Of a DNA stretch of 32,642 nt, positions 11,829 through 31,090 are shown piece by piece. How positions within the stretch are numbered: the stretch's first letter is position 1; each line of letters opens with the position of its first letter. The stretch is taken from the IMG/VR virus record IMGVR_UViG_2778261268_000005, one strand, 5' to 3'. The position numbers were made by a program, and so were the translations under genes. The DNA comes from a virus. Lineage: Duplodnaviria; Heunggongvirae; Uroviricota; Caudoviricetes. Below the pieces are notes generated by a model. It made no database searches. It saw nothing but the letters and a program-made list of their open reading frames with translations, and was not told the DNA's origin.

Positions 11829-13143
11829 TGTTCAGGCTCCCTTGAGTGTTAATTTTTGCCAGACGACGCCCCGGAATTTTGAAGGCACTCAGCCAGACGT
11901 TCGGATCGCCCTGATATTCAGTAATGCGACGCCCGGCTTCATCGTTGCGGATACGTTTATGCAGTTGCCCCTGCGTACTCATCATTTCTTTTTCGATGGA
12001 CTGACGGGCGGCACTGAAAATTGCGTCCTCAAGCACAGCCAGAGTTGCAGAATCCGCAATCGCGCGAATATTGACGTCCTTATGTGCCGGAGAGTGTTTC
12101 TGCATAGCGATAAGCGCACGCTTGCGGTAGTCCAGCGCATTTTCTCCAGAAAACGGTGCTGGCGCGTTTTTACCGCAGGCACTGAATGCGGAGTCGGCTT
12201 TTGCCTGTGCTTCGGCCAGGGCAGAGTCATTGCGTTCTTTTTCTGCCTCCTCGTCAGCTTTACGCTGTTCTTCCGCTTCGGAATCAGCCTTTGCTTTCTC
12301 CTCAGCGTCTTTGGCTGCCGCCTCGTCAGCTTTGGCTTTTTCTTCCGCCTCCTTTGCCGCAGCTTCATCAGCTTTACGCTGTTCCTCTGCGGCTTCATCG
12401 GCTTTGGCCTTTTCTTCGGCCTCTTTTTTCGCCTGCTCTTCGGCATCCGCCCGCGCTTTGTCCCGCTGTTCCAGTGAGTCCATGCGCGTGACTACTCCAT
12501 CGATTTTCTGATTAATTCCGCTCATGGCATCGTTCACCACCCCCTGTAACAGGGCCTGGAGTTCTTCTTTTTCCATCTCAATTTCACCTGTATTTGTCAC
12601 TTCAACCCCTGCGGGGATCCGGTCTTTATCCCACACGCCCAGCGAGCCGTGGTCTTTCGTCACCAGGGCGATGTGATCAACAAGGAAAGGAACGCCTTCG
12701 ATTAAAAAATTGGTGTCACCTTCCTGTACTTCCACATTTCCTGATGTGCTGTTGAACACCACCGACGGGCTTGTCGAAACATCCCCCTCAGTGATTTCTT
12801 CAACAATGCTCTGGAGGTAAACGCGGCACACCGCCCATACCTCATCACCCCGGATATACGGCAGCATGACGCTACCGACGATCCGCGATTTAAAGTCCTC
12901 CTCCGTCAGAACTGCGTCGTCAGGATGGTTTGCGATAACCGGAAGGCCATTGCATCGCCTTAAAAACTCCTCGTTAAGATAGAGCTTTGGATCACGCCAG
13001 ACGTGCTCTTTCAGCCCGGCGCGATAGGCAAGCCCGGTTCCGGTTATTCGCAAATTCACCAGCCACATGTTGGAGAATTTCACCGGAGACGGTACGGTTC
13101 CGTCCCTGATGCGTTCTGCCACTTCAAGCTCGGTTAAACTCAC
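11821..13143 (-). CDS. putative prohead scaffold/protease protein with central Ala/Glu/Lys-rich coiled-coil repeat (440 aa, GTG start)
   Basis: GGAGAAGGG Shine-Dalgarno upstream of GTG; repetitive KADEAAxEQ units typical of scaffold proteins. Confidence 0.5.
   Translation of the reverse strand: MSLTELEVAERIRDGTVPSPVKFSNMWLVNLRITGTGLAYRAGLKEHVWRDPKLYLNEEFLRRCNGLPVIANHPDDAVLTEEDFKSRIVGSVMLPYIRGDEVWAVCRVYLQSIVEEITEGDVSTSPSVVFNSTSGNVEVQEGDTNFLIEGVPFLVDHIALVTKDHGSLGVWDKDRIPAGVEVTNTGEIEMEKEELQALLQGVVNDAMSGINQKIDGVVTRMDSLEQRDKARADAEEQAKKEAEEKAKADEAAEEQRKADEAAAKEAEEKAKADEAAAKDAEEKAKADSEAEEQRKADEEAEKERNDSALAEAQAKADSAFSACGKNAPAPFSGENALDYRKRALIAMQKHSPAHKDVNIRAIADSATLAVLEDAIFSAARQSIEKEMMSTQGQLHKRIRNDEAGRRITEYQGDPNVWLSAFKIPGRRLAKINTQGSLNNG
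12230..12450 (-). repeat. imperfect in-frame tandem repeats encoding the (E/A/K)-rich coiled coil of the scaffold protein
   Basis: Repeated gcttt/ctttgg/cttcgg motifs on the plus strand; protein shows repeated EEKAKADEAA units. Confidence 0.6.
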
Positions 13144-13483
13144 GTTTGCCCTTCTCCGTTAAAAATTCGTCGGGTAGTTTCTGAGGGGCGTAGATCGGCA
13201 GTGCATCGCAACTGCAATAAACCTCCTCCCCAGCAGCAGTGATTTCGTCATAAAAACCATATACGGGCTTAATCAGCCCCTGCTCCAGCGCCCACGAATT
13301 GCGGAGGAGATAAATTTTCTCGTCGCGCTCTTTGTGGTCCTGTCGGTATTTGTAGCCCGGACGCCGCCAGTTAGAATGCCAGCGCAGAGCAATCGCTCCA
13401 CTCTGAACAGCCAGCAGATACTTAACGTTGCTTGCCAGCTTATGCCCCTGGTCAATTGCCACCCGGCGACTGATAAAATCCAT
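13124..13483 (-). CDS. small head-morphogenesis-region protein (about 120 aa) or 3' remnant of a larger head gene; start uncertain
   Basis: Track ORF 13124-13858 reads through three intrinsic terminators, so only the part downstream of the 13596-13624 terminator can be coding; candidate starts ATG 13483 or GTG 13540, both with poor Shine-Dalgarno. Confidence 0.3.
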   Translation of the reverse strand: MDFISRRVAIDQGHKLASNVKYLLAVQSGAIALRWHSNWRRPGYKYRQDHKERDEKIYLLRNSWALEQGLIKPVYGFYDEITAAGEEVYCSCDALPIYAPQKLPDEFLTEKGKREFNRA

Positions 13484-13595
13484 ATCCTTCACGGACTTAT
13501 GAAAACCGGACTTCACTTCCCAGCGATCAATTTCGCTCACCCCGTCAGGCGGAATGGACGTAACCGGATAAGGGTTCAGACATGCTTTTTCCTCC

Positions 13596-13624
13596 CACAA
13601 ATAAAAAAGGGCCGCCAGCGGCCC
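13596..13624 (-). terminator. intrinsic terminator (GGGCCG-CTGG-CGGCCC followed by TTTTTTATTT on the minus strand)
   Basis: Hairpin plus T-run read directly. Confidence 0.6.
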
Positions 13625-13708
13625 GTAAAAACACCCTGTCAAAGGCACCCGCAGATGCCTTTTGTGTGGTGTTATCTGATGTGATGTGCGCCGGGCGTGG
13701 CGCGGATA

Positions 13709-13775
13709 TGAAAAAGGCCCGCCGGAGCGAGCCATAAAAAACTGAATAAAAAAAAACCGCCAGGTGCGGCGGTTA
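13709..13775 (-). terminator. tandem pair of intrinsic terminators, copy A of a duplicated ~65 bp module
   Basis: Two hairpins each followed by a T-run on the minus strand; near-identical module at 14389-14453. Confidence 0.55.
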
Positions 13776-14028
13776 AGGATGTATTTCCGGGCTTGGCTTA
13801 GTATATGACCAATCACAGTTTTGTTTTTGTCGATGTTTACAACATCAGAATAATGCATTTAAAGTAGTAAAAATATTTGCTAATAATGCATTATTCCGAT
13901 GGTGTAAAAAATGGCACTGGAACCGCAACGAATATCACTCATTACAGAACAGGGGGCGCAAGGAACCATAAAAAACACCCTACATATATTATGTCAGTGC
14001 CTAACACAATCTCGCCTTAGTTACTGTT

Positions 14029-14101
<73 letters not shown>

Positions 14102-14388
14102 ATACTGTGCTGGCCCCCGGAATAACACGAATTACCAAGAGAGCCCGCACTGGTCTTTCCGGTGGCAAACAGCACCCCTGCTAACATAAAAGATAAACAC
14201 CTTCCAGACGCAAAAATACTAACAACTGTTTTTCAGATATCCAAAATATATTTGGTTTTTATTTTTGAAAATATGTATACATATGTATCATAAATATACA
14301 AGCCATATCATAACCGAATTAAAAATCTTTAGTTATCTCTTTTGCCGTCTGATCACCACCCACCGGCAGCTGAGAATTCCGGCACACA

Positions 14389-14453
14389 ATGAAAAAGGCC
14401 CGCCAGGGCGAGCCATAAAAACTGAATAAAAAAACCGCCCGGGGCGGCGGCTA
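14389..14453 (-). terminator. tandem pair of intrinsic terminators, copy B of the duplicated module
   Basis: Same two-hairpin architecture and flanking sequence as copy A, with point differences. Confidence 0.55.
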
Positions 14454-14815
14454 AAACGATAAAAGGACACAATATTATAATGATTATTGGGTTTGGGGCA
14501 TCGGGTGCCTCCCGAAGTATTCCACTTTACGTGGATACTGTGGTTTCCCGCTAAACCGACTCTATAAACCACCCTCGCACTGAGGAACGCCCCAATTCAT
14601 GTTTTCCGACACAGAGATGGCGCATCACTGGTTACTCCACGCTAAATCCTGCTTCCTTTCGTGGGCAATGCGCCATTTCTGTGTCATAAAAAATACAGCA
14701 CTGAGTCTGTAACCGATCTCCATTACAGAATGAGGGACGATAAAGGTATTAAAGAGATCTGTTCCTCACGAAAACCGCCAGTGCTGTAAAAACTTGTCCA
14801 AAAAACAATGAAGTT

Positions 14816-14884
14816 GCGGAGAACAGGAATCGAACCGGCATTACCAACCTAAGGCTGATGTAATAACCACTATACGATACCTGC
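14816..14884 (-). pseudogene. tRNA-like element, probably a degenerate paralogue of the tRNA-Gly gene
   Basis: 5' half nearly identical to the Gly tRNA (GTATCGTATAGTGGTTATTAC) and a TTCGATTCC T-loop, but anticodon, T and acceptor stems do not pair properly. Confidence 0.4.
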
Positions 14885-15406
14885 ATATAGAGCAGGCCTC
14901 CGTAACCACAATAATGACACTGATACTGATAACAGCCCTTCATTATGATTAAACGGATGCCAGCAATGACCCGCAAGACAGCGGGTAACACCCCTGTGAA
15001 CAGAAACTTGCTGCCTTTCGGGTCGAGAGTAATATTACCGATAATTTATATGACATCAAAAACTAATTAGTTTTCATATTTAAACATATGTATAAATATG
15101 TATCAGACGCATACAATTTATGTTATTTCATCCAGACTTCTGATTTCTCACAGGAAATTGCGAAAAAAAAACAACATAAAAATGAACAAATTGGGAGTAC
15201 GCTAACTCCGTTGTCGCAATAAATCACAGTAAGCTCTTCAGAAATAACAGTTCACAAGACTTACATCAACAGTAGTTTTTGTAATGATTAATGTTAACTG
15301 TAGCGTTGAAAAGAAAAGTTTTGACGAAATATGGTGAACTAACAGAGCCTAACGAATAGCCCTATTACGCCGAGCTAATAGCGCTGCCAGCTAAACTTGC
15401 ATGGAA

Positions 15407-15483
15407 TGGTCCGCCACCGAGGACTCGAACCTCGCACAATCAACTTAGAAGGTTGATGCTCTATCCCGATGAGCTAGTGGCGG
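15407..15483 (-). tRNA. tRNA-Arg(UCU), CCA encoded
   Basis: Acceptor CCGCCAC/GTGGCGG, anticodon loop CTTCTAA (anticodon TCT), T-loop TTCGAGT, 3' ACCA. Confidence 0.8.
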
Positions 15484-15485
15484 AA

Positions 15486-15561
15486 TGGTGGCCCTTGCTG
15501 GATTTGAACCAGCGACCTGGCGATTATGAGTCGCTCGCTCTCACCACTGAGCTAAAGGGCC
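15486..15561 (-). tRNA. tRNA with CAU anticodon, ileX/ileZ-like (Ile2 if lysidine-modified, otherwise Met), CCA encoded
   Basis: GGCCCTTTAGCTCAGTGG...ACTCATAATCGC...GGTTCAAATCCAGCAAGGGCCACCA; closely resembles E. coli ileX as recalled; 2 nt from the Arg tRNA. Confidence 0.8.
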
Positions 15562-18356: not shown

Positions 18357-18530
18357 TCATTCCCGAATCACCTTGAAACCGAGCCTTTCAAGATATTCAA
18401 TGAATGCCTCGATAGATAAAATTACATGATTATCAGGGATTAACGTTGCGTAGATAACTTCCCCATTCTCAACGCGCACAGCAAAGAGGCCATTTTCACT
18501 AAAAATTTCACGTAATTCTTCAATTTTCAT
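18357..18530 (-). CDS. small acidic hypothetical protein (57 aa), first gene of the operon leading to Q; below the ORF-track length cutoff
   Basis: ATG with GGAAGGA Shine-Dalgarno 8 nt upstream; lies between the hok terminator and the DUF1367 gene. Confidence 0.45.
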   Translation of the reverse strand: MKIEELREIFSENGLFAVRVENGEVIYATLIPDNHVILSIEAFIEYLERLGFKVIRE

Positions 18531-18644
18531 CAACAGAATCCTTCCAGATAAATAGCCCCCCCCTGTTCGGGGTCCATCCCTCTTCTCCCTGCGCGCTACT
18601 TAAGTATTTTTGATTCTATTCCGGCATCGTCCATAACTTCAAAC

Positions 18645-18681
18645 GTATTGAAAATAAAAACAAAAACCCGCCGAAGCGGGT
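18645..18681 (-). terminator. intrinsic terminator at the 3' end of the hok transcript
   Basis: CCCGC-TTCG-GCGGG hairpin followed by TTTTTGTTTTTATTTT on the minus strand, about 70 nt after the hok stop. Confidence 0.6.
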
Positions 18682-18750
18682 TAAGTGCGGGTGCGTTGAA
18701 GATGCCTGACACATCATAGGCGGCGAGGGATTTCTCCCTCGCCTGGTCTC

Positions 18751-18906
18751 TTACTCCTCAGGTTCGTAAGCTGTGAAGACAGCGACCTCCGTCTGGCCGG
18801 TTCGGATTCGTACCTCGCAGAGGTCTTTCCTCGTTACCAGTGCCGTCACTATGACGGTTAAACAGATGACGATCAGGGCGATTAACATCGCCTTTTGCTG
18901 CTTCAT
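18751..18906 (-). CDS. hokD: Hok/Gef-family type I toxin (51 aa); an in-frame upstream start at 18963 gives a 70 aa Mok-like form
   Basis: Translation MKQQKAMLIALIVICLTVIVTALVTRKDLCEVRIRTGQTEVAVFTAYEPEE matches HokD/RelF as recalled; structured leader and 3' terminator. Confidence 0.85.
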   Translation of the reverse strand: MKQQKAMLIALIVICLTVIVTALVTRKDLCEVRIRTGQTEVAVFTAYEPEE

Positions 18907-19116
18907 AGCCTGCTTCTCCTTGCCTTTCGGCACGTAAGAGGCTAACCTACATTTGTGAGACATAGATTGGGCCTCAGATTAATGTTAAGCGTCTTGCAGG
19001 ACGCGTAATGTTAACTGGGGCTTTTCTCTATCTGCCTTTGGTGTTCATGCCCGAGGCAGATAGCCTCAAGCACCCGCAGCAATTCTACTTAACTCTCCTT
19101 TTCCCGCAAACCGTTT

Positions 19117-19200
19117 TTATCCCCAGCGGCAAATCGAATACACCACCAGCGCCACCGCCATCGCAATTCCTACCGTGGTGAATGCCTCAGGCCGGGTCAT
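19117..19200 (-). CDS. candidate 27 aa hydrophobic peptide (MTRPEAFTTVGIAMAVALVVYSICRWG), coupled to the DUF551 gene stop
   Basis: ATG overlaps the upstream TGA (ATGA); single predicted transmembrane segment; no other support. Confidence 0.25.
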   Translation of the reverse strand: MTRPEAFTTVGIAMAVALVVYSICRWG

Positions 19201-30714: not shown

Positions 30715-30909
30715 ATGCGGTATGAAAAAGTCAAACCATGCCCTTTTTGTGGTTGTCCATCAGTAACGGTGAAAGCCATTTCAGGATATTACCGCGCGAA
30801 GTGTAACGGATGCGAATCCCGAACCGGCTATGGTGGAAGTGAAAAAGAAGCACTCGAACGATGGAATAAACGAACCACTGGAAATAATAATGGAGGTGTT
30901 CATGTATAA
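30715..30909 (+). CDS. ralR: restriction alleviation protein RalR/Lar (64 aa)
   Basis: Translation MRYEKVKPCPFCGCPSVTVKAISGYYRAKCNGCESRTGYGG... matches RalR as recalled. Confidence 0.8.
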   Translation: MRYEKVKPCPFCGCPSVTVKAISGYYRAKCNGCESRTGYGGSEKEALERWNKRTTGNNNGGVHV

Positions 30910-31090
30910 AATTACCGCCACTATTGAAAAGGAAGGTGGCACTCCTACTAACTGGACAAGGTACTCAAAAACAAAGTTAACCAAATCGGAATGCGAAAAA
31001 ATGCTCTCAGGGAAAAAAGAAGCAGGCGTTTCCAGAGAGCAGAAAGTAAAACTGATAAATTTTAATTGCGAGAAACTTCAGTCCTCGTGA
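30902..31090 (+). CDS. YdaC-like small protein (62 aa)
   Basis: GGAGGTG Shine-Dalgarno; overlaps the ralR stop; position between ralR and xis. Confidence 0.5.
   Translation: MYKITATIEKEGGTPTNWTRYSKTKLTKSECEKMLSGKKEAGVSREQKVKLINFNCEKLQSS

What the first reader, a model, noticed from the sequence alone, without database searches (positions are those of the whole stretch)
18751..19100. hokD-like type I toxin locus inside the prophage, with in-frame Mok-like extension and a structured leader
The 51 aa product matches the Hok/Gef family, HokD-like. An in-frame upstream start at 18963 would give a 70 aa Mok-like form, and the leader contains a 9 bp inverted repeat (19007-19043) plus a 3' terminator. 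A Sok-like antisense RNA is expected on the plus strand near 18930-19010 but cannot be defined by eye. Hok/Sok loci can act as phage-exclusion modules, so this may be a resident defence element.
Basis: partly seen in the sequence, partly recalled or inferred. Interest (0 to 1): 0.4.

Follow-up and report, generated by a model that had tools for sequence, protein, structure and literature searches.

The report
Intact prophage hok/mok/sok toxin-antitoxin locus
This is a complete copy of the well-known hok/sok "host-killing" toxin–antisense RNA module, of the hokD/hokW type that lambdoid prophages of E. coli carry in thousands of genomes. It is real and well built but ordinary, and its nearest tested relative helps the phage lyse its host rather than defending against other phages.

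Summary
The finding is real, but it is already known. Window 19110–18662 (minus strand) holds a complete type I toxin-antitoxin locus.

- **Toxin:** the 51-aa Hok ORF (18906–18751) is 100% identical to K-12 HokD and 92% identical to HokW of phage 933W/Sp5.
- **mok:** an in-frame mok start lies at 18963.
- **Long-range pairing:** the mRNA 5' end (tac, 19075–19064) pairs with a 3'-UTR element (fbi, 18701–18689). This pairing holds in about 100 homologues, with compensatory changes.
- **Terminator:** 18682–18665.
- **Sok:** the antisense gene maps to 18955–19025 (plus strand). Its promoter region is identical in sequence to that of sokW, whose -10 element was shown by mutation to be needed for antitoxin activity.
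- **Database status:** RefSeq annotates the identical DNA as hokD, and 4731 of 5426 complete E. coli genomes have a match.

- There is no 9-bp inverted repeat at 19007–19043. The only perfect one is 10 bp, at 19028–37/19054–63.
- The locus runs about 90 nt beyond the stated 3' limit.
- The "defence element" reading lacks support. hokW-sokW aids prophage-induced lysis, hok genes are not enriched near defence systems, and PADLOC gives no hit.

The most interesting side observation is a sharply hypervariable patch at the site where the Sok 5' tail meets the mok start.

The parts
19082..19109 (-). Putative hok promoter: -35 TTGCGG (19109-19104), 16-nt spacer, -10 TAGAAT (19087-19082). The predicted +1 is the G at 19075.
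   Evidence: Read from the sequence. The stretch is identical in phage 933W. The +1 coincides with the first position of the Rfam RF01794 match. The consensus scan missed it because the -35 matches only 3 of 6. The start site is inferred, not mapped.
18662..19075 (-). Full-length hok mRNA, about 414 nt.
   Evidence: MFE -171.3 kcal/mol, z = -7.5 against 100 shuffles. In the MFE structure the 5' end pairs with the 3' UTR.
19064..19075 (-). tac element (mRNA nt 1-12, GGGUGCUUGAGG).
   Evidence: A 9-nt perfect complement lies 375 nt away (I6). The duplex with the 3' UTR is found in nearly all of 108 unique homologues.
19047..19057 (-). Local partner of tac (mRNA nt 19-29). It forms the alternative 5' hairpin, equivalent to the metastable hairpin of nascent R1 hok mRNA.
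   Evidence: RNAalifold pairs columns 3-13 with 20-30; pair 4-29 is UA in 43 sequences and CG in 11. This hairpin is the MFE once fbi is removed.
19028..19063 (-). 10-bp perfect stem-loop (CUAUCUGCCU / AGGCAGAUAG) in the leader.
19017..19021 (-). ucb / anti-SD (GCCCC, mRNA nt 55-59). It pairs with the mok SD in the closed form and can pair with tac in the open form.
   Evidence: RNAalifold pairs columns 57-67 with 96-107, with compensatory changes (62-102 AU to GC in 11 sequences; 66-97 AU to GC in 25). With tac/ucb enforced, the truncated RNA lies only 2.7 kcal/mol above its MFE, against 7.6 kcal/mol for the full-length RNA.
18972..18975 (-). mok Shine-Dalgarno GAGG, 8 nt upstream of the mok ATG.
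   Evidence: Sequence. The columns are invariant in 56 homologues.
18751..18963 (-). mok ORF, 70 codons, in frame with hok, so the product would be an N-terminally extended Hok.
   Evidence: The arrangement matches the annotated mokW/hokW of 933W. 85 of 108 unique relatives have the in-frame form.
18948..18971 (.). Hypervariable patch: mok start codon hairpin on the hok mRNA, which is the 5' single-stranded tail of Sok on the other strand.
   Evidence: Among 65 homologues at least 88% identical, mean entropy is 0.91 bit per position at 18965-18956, against 0.1 or less over most of the locus. There are 15 variants, and all keep a hairpin of -11.5 to -15.5 kcal/mol.
18920..18948 (+). Sok promoter: -35 TTGCCT (18920-18925), 17-nt spacer, -10 TAACCT (18943-18948). 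It lies inside mok and overlaps the hok SD on the other strand.
   Evidence: Sequence. The region is identical in 933W. Mutations around the sokW -10 abolished antitoxin activity (PMC8621323). The columns are almost invariant among close homologues.
18955..19025 (+). Sok antisense RNA, about 71 nt: a 5' tail of about 14 nt, a long terminator hairpin (18969-19020), then CUUUU.
   Evidence: Coordinates transferred from the sokW misc_RNA of AF125520. The fold is -32.7 kcal/mol, z = -5.3. Neither end is mapped for this copy.
18916..18920 (-). hok Shine-Dalgarno AGGAG.
   Evidence: Sequence. It is conserved in the alignment.
18751..18906 (-). hok ORF: a 51-aa membrane toxin.
   Evidence: Pfam HOK_GEF E=3e-23. 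100% identical to K-12 HokD and 47/51 identical to HokW.
18766..18768 (-). Tyr47 codon UAC inside the invariant UUACGAA loop of a covarying hairpin. This is the known TadA A-to-I editing site (Tyr to Cys) of hokC, hokD and hokE.
   Evidence: TTACGAA is invariant in 56 sequences. The stem, columns 317-319 with 329-331, shows compensatory changes in 17 and 23 sequences. K-12 hokD mRNA, whose coding sequence is identical, is edited at 6% (PMC12214031).
18722..18743 (-). 9-bp perfect 3'-UTR hairpin. It is the likely protective 3' end of the processed (truncated) mRNA.
   Evidence: I7. It covaries in RNAalifold, columns 349-356 with 368-380. Its role is inferred from R1 (PMC9841398).
18689..18701 (-). 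fbi (fold-back inhibitory) element, UCUUCAACGCACC plus C. It pairs with tac.
   Evidence: 90.9% of cells are paired, against 39-61% in slid controls, and U4-A changes to C-G in 10 sequences.
18665..18682 (-). Intrinsic terminator of the hok mRNA.

Best explanation
This is a complete, probably functional hok/mok/sok type I toxin-antitoxin module of the hokD/hokW subtype. It sits in the nin region of a Rac-like lambdoid prophage integrated at ttcA, and it points the same way as the flanking early-right genes.

**Shown at sequence level**
1. A weak promoter would yield an mRNA of about 414 nt.
2. The first 12 nt of that mRNA (tac) pair with a 3'-UTR element (fbi).
3. The mok Shine-Dalgarno is held in a stem by an upstream anti-SD (ucb).
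4. A Sok gene of about 71 nt is transcribed convergently from a promoter inside mok. It is complementary to the mok translation-initiation region.

**Inferred from plasmid R1 hok/sok and from hokW-sokW**
1. The full-length mRNA is stable but is neither translated nor bound by Sok.
2. Slow 3' trimming removes fbi, and the 5' end refolds.
3. The mok SD opens, and ribosomes reading mok allow hok to be translated.
4. While Sok is present, it pairs with the processed mRNA and the duplex is degraded, partly through RNase III.
5. When the short-lived Sok is no longer made, the stored mRNA yields Hok.
6. Hok inserts into the inner membrane and collapses it.

**Most likely biological role**
By analogy with hokW-sokW, the module is coupled to prophage induction or loss. 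Either it damages the membrane early and so assists lysis, or it kills cells that lose the element.
For: **Identity**
- Pfam HOK_GEF E=3e-23.
- The Hok protein is 100% identical to K-12 HokD and 92% identical to HokW.
- Rfam RF01794 scores 117.7 bits.
- DNA that is 100% identical over the 601-nt locus query is annotated hokD in four RefSeq genomes. 4731 of 5426 complete E. coli genomes have a match.

**Anatomy**
- The locus aligns end to end with the annotated mokW/hokW/sokW of phage 933W at 93% identity.
- The tac-fbi duplex sits at a constant 48-49 nt after the stop codon in most homologues. It shows compensatory changes: GGGUGC/GCACCC to GGGCGC/GCGCCC, and GAGG/CCUC to GAGA/UCUC.
- 90.9% of cells are paired, against 39-61% in slid controls.
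- The same 5' nucleotides also covary with a local partner. This is the coupled-covariation signature of a conformational switch.
- The mok-SD/ucb stem covaries as well.
- Deleting fbi in silico moves the 5' end into the local hairpin. It also brings the tac/ucb form to within 2.7 kcal/mol of the MFE, against 7.6 kcal/mol in the full-length RNA.

**Experiments on relatives**
- hokW-sokW: HokW is toxic, sokW made from its own promoter neutralises it, and RNase III and Hfq contribute. sokW disappears and HokW appears after mitomycin C in a RecA-dependent way. Phage release is halved without the locus (PMC8621323).
- The R1 mechanism is summarised in PMC9841398.

**Context**
- The window is 99.98% identical to the RM11911 prophage, which carries intR, xisR, ralR, recET and kilR, then DUF551, hokD, DUF1367, DUF1364 and DUF1133, then tRNAs.
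Against: - Nothing has been measured for this copy. The transcript ends, 3' processing, Sok expression and toxicity are all transferred from relatives.
- Thermodynamic folding did not show a clear rise in accessibility of the mok or hok SD after truncation.
- Both promoters match the consensus poorly. The hok -35 matches 3 of 6 and the Sok -10 matches 3 of 6, and neither passed the scan.
- Chromosomal hok loci of K-12, C and ECOR strains were reported unable to mediate post-segregational killing (cited in bioRxiv 10.1101/2025.08.07.668861).
- Compared with its closest relatives, the prophage in this window lacks about 7.7 kb that include the lysis and terminase genes. A lysis-assisting role like that of hokW may therefore be irrelevant here.
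Confidence: 0.87

Rival explanations
1. The locus is mainly an anti-phage abortive-infection module. An infecting lytic phage shuts off host transcription, Sok decays, Hok is made, and the cell dies before the phage completes its cycle.
For: R1 hok/sok on a high-copy plasmid cut T4 efficiency of plating by 42% and plaque size by about 85% (as summarised in PMC8621323). The regulatory logic, an unstable antitoxin RNA set against a stable toxin mRNA, fits in principle. Prophages often carry defence genes.
Against: - The nearest tested relative acts for the phage, not against other phages.
- hok genes are not enriched near defence systems: 12% against 9.4% expected, whereas SymE reaches 96%.
- No PADLOC model matches.
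- In R1, activation depends on slow 3' processing of the mRNA, which suits a fast lytic infection poorly. This last point is inference.
Confidence: 0.15
2. The locus is an inactive evolutionary relic, like the K-12 chromosomal hok genes. It is carried along passively by the prophage and never produces toxin.
For: - K-12 hokA, hokC and hokE are interrupted by insertion elements, and hokD has lost its regulatory leader (PMC12214031). One search confirms this for hokD: homology with the window starts only 15 nt upstream of the hok ATG.
- Chromosomal hok loci that were tested did not mediate post-segregational killing.
- The promoters match the consensus weakly.
Against: - Unlike K-12 hokD, this copy keeps every element: tac, ucb, mok SD and ATG, Sok promoter and hairpin, fbi and terminator.
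- These elements are under visible constraint. There are compensatory changes in four helices, and entropy is near zero outside one patch.
- The 92-93% identical hokW-sokW locus is active at single copy in a lysogen.
Confidence: 0.08
3. The effective toxin is the 70-aa in-frame Mok-Hok fusion made from the ATG at 18963, not the 51-aa Hok.
For: The in-frame form is the commonest arrangement, in 85 of 108 unique relatives. Many databases annotate the 70-aa protein. The mok SD and ATG are the site that Sok controls.
Against: - The frame is not conserved. In 13 close relatives mok is a 19-codon leader whose stop overlaps the hok ATG, and in 9 it overlaps hok out of frame.
- mok codons 2-5 are the most variable part of the locus.
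- The hok SD and ATG are conserved.
- K-12 HokD and HokW are toxic when expressed as the 51-aa form.

Together these fit mok acting as a translational-coupling leader whose peptide sequence does not matter.
Confidence: 0.1

Closest known systems
hokW-mokW-sokW of Stx2 phage 933W / Sakai prophage 5 (AF125520; Takada et al. 2021, PMC8621323)
   Same: - The layout and size match element for element, and the DNA is 93% identical over about 490 nt.
- Hok is 47/51 identical.
- The promoter regions of hok and Sok, tac, ucb, the hok SD and the fbi core are identical.
- mok is in frame in both.
- Both lie in a lambdoid prophage.
   Different: - Eight to nine substitutions are concentrated in the Sok 5' tail and mok codons 1-5. 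The peptide reads MSHKC here and MLNTC in 933W.
- There is one change in the Sok hairpin loop.
- The Hok C-terminus differs: TAYEPEE here, VDYESEK in HokW.
- The window has a canonical terminator after fbi, while the 933W sequence diverges there.
- The host prophage is Rac-like, integrated at ttcA, and appears to lack lysis and terminase genes. It is not an inducible Stx phage.
hokD (relF) of the Qin cryptic prophage, E. coli K-12
   Same: The hok coding sequence is 100% identical in nucleotides and protein. The 3' UTR, including fbi and the terminator, is about 95% identical. PGAP gives this window's gene the same name.
   Different: K-12 hokD has lost everything upstream of position -15: tac, ucb, the mok start, the Sok gene and its own promoter. 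It sits directly behind relBE. The window holds the intact ancestral-type locus, so 'hokD' describes the protein but not the regulatory state.
hok/mok/sok of plasmid R1 (parB), the paradigm type I toxin-antitoxin
   Same: The same set of elements occurs in the same order: tac, ucb, mok SD, the Sok target, mok, hok, a 3' hairpin, fbi and a terminator. The mRNA is about 400 nt. The Sok promoter lies inside mok. The long-range 5'-3' pairing is also present (mechanism from PMC9841398).
   Different: - Hok is only about 42% identical. PMC8621323 gives 44% for HokW against R1 Hok.
- From my recollection of the R1 sequence, which I did not verify here, R1 mok is out of frame with hok, whereas it is in frame here.
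- The Sok-target hairpin here is about 20 nt longer than in the hokC-type and Photorhabdus homologues.
- The location is a prophage rather than a plasmid, so classical plasmid post-segregational killing does not apply directly.
hokC(gef)/mokC/sokC-type chromosomal loci of Escherichia
   Same: The family is the same, mok is in frame, and tac-fbi pairing is conserved (loci L015-L022).
   Different: Hok identity is about 80-82% and mRNA identity about 65-69%. The Sok-target hairpin is shorter and the chromosomal context differs.

Membership tests
hok/sok (Hok/Gef) type I toxin-antitoxin family | Small hydrophobic Hok/Gef toxin of about 50 aa with a Pfam PF01848 domain | tested here: met
   E=3e-23, 81.6 bits against a cut-off of 22, full-length profile match 1-42/42. 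100% identical to K-12 HokD. NCBIfam Hok models hit but fall below their curated cut-offs: 48.5 bits against 73.
hok/sok (Hok/Gef) type I toxin-antitoxin family | Upstream overlapping leader ORF (mok) with its own SD, starting about 55-60 nt before hok | tested here: met
   ATG at 18963, with GAGG 8 nt upstream, 57 nt before the hok ATG. A start codon sits at the aligned position in 107 of 108 unique relatives, although the reading frame relative to hok varies.
hok/sok (Hok/Gef) type I toxin-antitoxin family | cis-encoded antisense Sok RNA (about 65-70 nt) complementary to the mok translation-initiation region, with its promoter inside mok | tested here: met
   Met at sequence level only. The promoter region is identical to sokW, whose -10 was shown by mutation to be needed. 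The predicted RNA has a 5' tail, a terminator hairpin and a U tract, with z = -5.3. Expression cannot be tested here.
hok/sok (Hok/Gef) type I toxin-antitoxin family | Long-range pairing of the mRNA 5' end (tac) with a 3'-UTR element (fbi) | tested here: met
   A 9-nt perfect complement lies 375 nt away. It is part of the MFE structure. It is conserved with compensatory changes in homologues from Escherichia, Kluyvera, Photorhabdus, Erwinia and others. 90.9% of cells are paired against 39-61% when slid, and no shuffle of 500 reaches the observed paired fraction or covariation score.
hok/sok (Hok/Gef) type I toxin-antitoxin family | Sequestration of the mok SD by an upstream complementary box, and an alternative pairing of tac (metastable hairpin or tac stem) | tested here: met
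   RNAalifold predicts both helices, each with pairs changed on both sides. In-silico truncation moves the 5' end into the local hairpin. The tac/ucb form becomes nearly isoenergetic only after fbi is removed. The tac/ucb pairs themselves never vary, so covariation says nothing about them.
hok/sok (Hok/Gef) type I toxin-antitoxin family | Match to the curated RNA family for the hok leader/Sok region (Rfam RF01794) | tested here: met
   117.7 bits against a gathering score of 59, full model 1-157. The match is on the hok-sense strand.
hok/sok (Hok/Gef) type I toxin-antitoxin family | Slow 3' exonucleolytic processing that activates the mRNA, and RNase III cleavage of the Sok-mRNA duplex | not testable with these tools
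   Known for R1 (PMC9841398). For hokW, RNase III dependence is partial and shorter hokW RNAs were seen but not characterised (PMC8621323).
hok/sok (Hok/Gef) type I toxin-antitoxin family | Toxicity of Hok and its neutralisation by Sok | not testable with these tools
   The identical HokD protein is listed as a toxic control in the literature. HokW is toxic and sokW neutralises it.
Known anti-phage defence systems (PADLOC-DB v2) | The protein matches a model of a known or candidate defence system | tested here: not met
   No hit at E of 0.01 or better for Hok or for the two neighbouring small ORFs.

The most novel reading that the evidence does not exclude
The about 24-nt patch at 18948-18971 holds the mok start hairpin and, on the other strand, the Sok 5' tail. 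It is the only strongly variable part of an otherwise 94-100% conserved module. It occurs in at least 15 discrete variants, and all of them keep the hairpin. The most novel reading is that these variants are orthogonal specificity classes, comparable to plasmid incompatibility determinants. On this reading each prophage-borne Sok silences only its own hok mRNA, so loss or induction of one prophage triggers its own Hok even when several hok/sok prophages share a cell. The median is 2 places per genome and the maximum 11. Diversifying selection would then act on the RNA-RNA recognition site. I found no mention of this in the papers I read, and the 2026 survey explicitly did not analyse the Sok, mok or mRNA elements.
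Probability: 0.35. Interest if true: 0.45.

Novelty: already known. Interest (0 to 1): 0.15.

Why it matters
As a discovery it matters little. The identical sequence is already annotated as hokD in RefSeq, the family has been a textbook model since the 1980s, and the 93%-identical hokW-sokW locus has been tested experimentally.

The value of this check lies in four corrections and clarifications:

1. The gene name 'hokD' hides the fact that this copy, unlike the K-12 namesake, is a complete regulated module.
2. The 'defence element' label should not be passed on. The available evidence points to a role tied to the prophage's own induction or retention.
3. The Rfam 'sok' hit marks the hok-sense leader, not the antitoxin strand.
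4. The sharply localised variability at the Sok recognition site could be tested as a question about cross-talk between co-resident type I toxin-antitoxin copies.

Tried and rejected
1. **RNAalifold on the 56-sequence mRNA alignment** did not return the tac-fbi helix beyond two pairs. It chose the competing local 5' hairpin instead. I therefore tested tac-fbi as a named structure and by per-sequence duplex prediction. In A3 the second half of the helix is one column out of register for the Photorhabdus group, which lacks the bulged C. This explains the 12-13 'not paired' cells there.
2. **Base-pair probabilities** of full-length against truncated mRNA showed no convincing opening of the mok or hok SD. 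I do not claim in-silico support for that step.
3. **Do co-resident copies differ in the hypervariable patch more than chance predicts?** Six of 7 within-genome pairs differ, but random pairs would differ about 88% of the time by my calculation from the counts. The test is uninformative at this sample size.
4. **The consensus promoter scan** found neither the hok nor the Sok promoter. Both are assigned by homology and position.
5. **PADLOC** gave no hit. **NCBIfam** gave hits only below the curated cut-offs.
an exhaustive search for perfect repeats of 7 bp or more found none with both arms in that range.
7. **I considered and rejected the idea that the 70-aa fusion is the conserved product,** because the mok frame varies among close relatives.
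Full report
**What is there**

The minus strand between about 19110 and 18662 carries a compact locus.
- The 51-aa ORF 18906..18751 matches Pfam HOK_GEF over the whole profile, E=3e-23.
- It is 51/51 identical to K-12 HokD and 47/51 identical to HokW of phage 933W.
- An ATG at 18963, preceded by GAGG, opens a 70-codon frame that runs into hok in frame.
- Rfam's only family for this system, RF01794, matches 19075..18901 at 117.7 bits against a gathering score of 59.
- An intrinsic terminator lies at 18682..18665.

Two details in the finding are wrong or incomplete.
- No 9-bp inverted repeat has both arms inside 19007-19043. The only perfect repeat of 7 bp or more in the leader is 10 bp, at 19028-19037 and 19054-19063.
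- The stated range stops at the hok stop codon, although the 3' UTR down to 18662 is a functional part of the locus.

**Where it sits**

The window is 99.98% identical to a prophage of E. coli RM11911 integrated next to ttcA. That prophage has Rac-type intR, xisR, ralR, recET and kilR. The hok locus lies between a DUF551 gene and DUF1367, DUF1364 and DUF1133 genes. It is upstream of the tRNA cluster and points the same way as these early-right genes.

DNA that is 100% identical over the 601-nt locus query is annotated 'hokD' in four RefSeq genomes. 4731 of 5426 complete E. coli genomes have a match, with a median of 2 and up to 11 places per genome. 84 phage records match as well.

**Anatomy by comparison**

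The locus aligns end to end, at 93% identity, with the region of 933W annotated mokW, hokW and sokW. Transferring the 71-nt sokW feature places Sok at 18955-19025 on the plus strand.
- Upstream of it lie TTGCCT (18920-25), a 17-nt spacer and TAACCT (18943-48).
- This stretch is identical in 933W. There, mutations around the -10 abolished antitoxin activity and sokW supplied in trans partly restored it (PMC8621323).
- The predicted Sok has a 5' tail of about 14 nt, a long hairpin and a U tract (-32.7 kcal/mol, z = -5.3).
- The putative hok promoter, TTGCGG-16-TAGAAT at 19109-19082, puts +1 at the G of 19075. That is also the first position of the Rfam match. The start site is inferred.

K-12 hokD shares only the stretch from 15 nt upstream of the hok ATG to beyond the terminator. 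Its leader is replaced by relBE. The window therefore holds the intact form of a locus whose K-12 namesake is a regulatory stump.

**The RNA switch**

The 414-nt transcript folds far better than shuffles (z = -7.5). Its first 12 nt pair with 18701-18689 in the 3' UTR. Nine of these nucleotides are a perfect complement 375 nt away.

I fetched 53 genomic and 80 viral loci that encode relatives and reduced them to 108 unique mRNAs with a recognisable 5' end.
- In nearly all of them the 5' end finds its best 3'-UTR duplex at a constant 44-56 nt after the stop codon, mostly 48-49 nt.
- Compensatory changes are seen: GGGUGC/GCACCC to GGGCGC/GCGCCC, and GAGG/CCUC to GAGA/UCUC.
- On a 56-sequence alignment the named tac-fbi helix has 90.9% of cells paired, against 39-61% for slid controls. 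U-A changes to C-G in 10 sequences.
- RNAalifold preferred a competing local hairpin of the same 5' nucleotides (columns 3-13 with 20-30), in which the same U/C column covaries with another A/G column in 11 sequences. It also recovered the stem that buries the mok SD, with pairs changed on both sides in 11-25 sequences.

One 5' segment covarying with two alternative partners is the signature of the conformational switch described for R1:
- closed full-length RNA held by tac/fbi;
- a metastable local hairpin during transcription;
- an open tac/ucb form after 3' trimming (PMC9841398).

In silico, deleting fbi moves the 5' end into the local hairpin. It also brings the tac/ucb conformation to within 2.7 kcal/mol of the optimum, against 7.6 kcal/mol in the full-length RNA. 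Predicted SD accessibility did not change convincingly. That step rests on R1 experiments, not on my computation.

**How it most likely works**

Shown here:
- all sequence elements of a hok/mok/sok module are present, in order, and under structural constraint.

Inferred from R1 and hokW:
- the full-length mRNA is stable and inert;
- 3' trimming removes fbi, and refolding exposes the mok SD and the Sok target;
- Sok binds and the duplex is degraded, with RNase III and Hfq contributing in hokW;
- when Sok synthesis stops, the stored mRNA is translated through mok, which couples to hok;
- Hok then permeabilises the inner membrane.

In Sp5 lysogens, sokW vanished and HokW appeared after mitomycin C in a RecA-dependent way. 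HokW appeared about 1 h before the endolysin, and deleting the locus delayed growth arrest by about 40 min and halved phage release.

Because hok here points the same way as the early-right operon, read-through transcription after induction would collide with Sok transcription. That is my inference for why Sok is lost, and it is untested.

**Function and the defence idea**

Three things count against extending it here.
- The closest tested relative acts in favour of its own phage.
- PADLOC has no matching model.

I give abortive infection about 0.15. The relic hypothesis gets less, because helices covary and the sequence outside one patch is nearly invariant.

One caveat applies. Relative to RM11911, the window lacks about 7.7 kb covering the holins, the endolysin, the terminase and part of the portal-side genes. 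No complete E. coli genome in the collection carries this junction. If the junction is real, the prophage is defective. A lysis-assisting role would then be moot, which leaves retention or addiction, or no current role.

**Mok**

The in-frame extension is the common arrangement, in 85 of 108 relatives.
- In 13 close relatives mok is a 19-codon ORF whose stop overlaps the hok ATG.
- In 9 it overlaps hok out of frame.
- One relative lacks the ATG.

The first mok codons are also the most variable part of the locus. This fits mok acting as a ribosome-delivery leader rather than as a conserved protein.

**Side observation worth a test**

Among 65 mRNAs at least 88% identical to the window, per-position entropy is about 0-0.1 bit over most of the locus. 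It reaches 0.91 bit at 18965-18956. The patch at 18948-18971 occurs in at least 15 discrete variants, and each still folds into the mok-start hairpin (-11.5 to -15.5 kcal/mol).

This patch is exactly the Sok 5' tail and its target. It may define non-cross-reacting Sok/hok pairs among co-resident copies. My small co-residency check was uninformative: 6 of 7 pairs differ, against about 88% expected by chance.

**Verdict**

This is a correct identification of a known, widely annotated element. The functional speculation about defence is not supported. Novelty: already known. Interest: low.

Noticed in passing
window 18948-18971 (both strands): Variation among otherwise 94-100% identical hokD/hokW-type loci is concentrated in a patch of about 24 nt. 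The patch covers the mok start codon hairpin and the Sok 5' tail. It has at least 15 variants, and all of them keep the hairpin. These may be Sok/hok specificity classes.
   Followed up: partly
window 18907-18963, and loci L080, L011, L029 and others: The mok reading frame relative to hok is not conserved among close relatives. Of 108 unique relatives, 85 have an in-frame fusion, 13 have a 19-codon leader whose stop overlaps the hok ATG, and 9 overlap hok out of frame.
   Followed up: yes
window 18901-19075 (-): The Rfam family RF01794, named 'sok antitoxin', matches the hok-sense strand. Its first position is the predicted hok mRNA +1 and its last three are the hok AUG. The hit therefore marks the hok leader. 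Sok itself is the reverse complement of an internal part of the model.
   Followed up: yes
window 18766-18768 (-), hairpin about 18757-18775: The hok Tyr47 codon UAC lies in an invariant UUACGAA loop closed by a covarying 3-bp stem. This is the TadA A-to-I editing context (Tyr to Cys) reported for hokC, hokD and hokE. K-12 hokD mRNA, whose coding sequence is identical, is edited at 6% (PMC12214031).
   Followed up: partly
window 13562-13565; ORF 13124..13858 (-): Relative to the 99.98%-identical RM11911 prophage, the window skips about 7.7 kb (L002 24640-32364). That stretch holds the holins, an M15 endolysin, the terminase subunits and part of the next gene. The result is a 244-aa fusion ORF across the junction. 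No complete E. coli genome in the collection carries this junction. It is either a real deletion that makes the prophage defective, or an assembly join.
   Followed up: partly
window 30908-31086 (-): A second type I toxin-antitoxin system lies in the same prophage. RalA antitoxin RNA matches at 218.5 bits, and ralR is annotated on the opposite strand in the matching RM11911 region.
   Followed up: no
window 19117-19200 (-): A 27-aa hydrophobic ORF (MTRPEAFTTVGIAMAVALVVYSICRWG) starts at an ATGA overlap with the stop of the DUF551 gene. It ends about 7 nt before the hok -35. Its 3' end is also present in 933W. It has no Pfam or PADLOC hit.
   Followed up: no
window 18613-18642 (-) and 18357-18533 (-): A promoter-like site (TTGAAG-18-TAGAAT) follows the hok terminator directly. 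Downstream of it lies a 58-aa ORF with no family hit. RefSeq annotates only a partial pseudogene here.
   Followed up: no
window 14030-15561 (-): A tRNA cluster lies downstream of the Q-like region. RM11911 annotates Ile, Arg and Gly tRNAs here. A fourth, weak tRNA match at 14815-14884 (31.8 bits against a gathering score of 29) is not annotated in RM11911.
   Followed up: no
locus L003 (K-12 MG1655 1645119-1645633): K-12 hokD keeps the fbi element and the terminator but has no tac to pair with them. Homology to the intact locus begins 15 nt before the hok ATG, directly after relE.
   Followed up: yes
alignment A3, columns 68-95: hokD/hokW-type and Kluyvera loci carry an extension of about 20 nt in the Sok-terminator / Sok-target hairpin. 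hokC-type, Photorhabdus and Erwinia homologues lack it.
   Followed up: no
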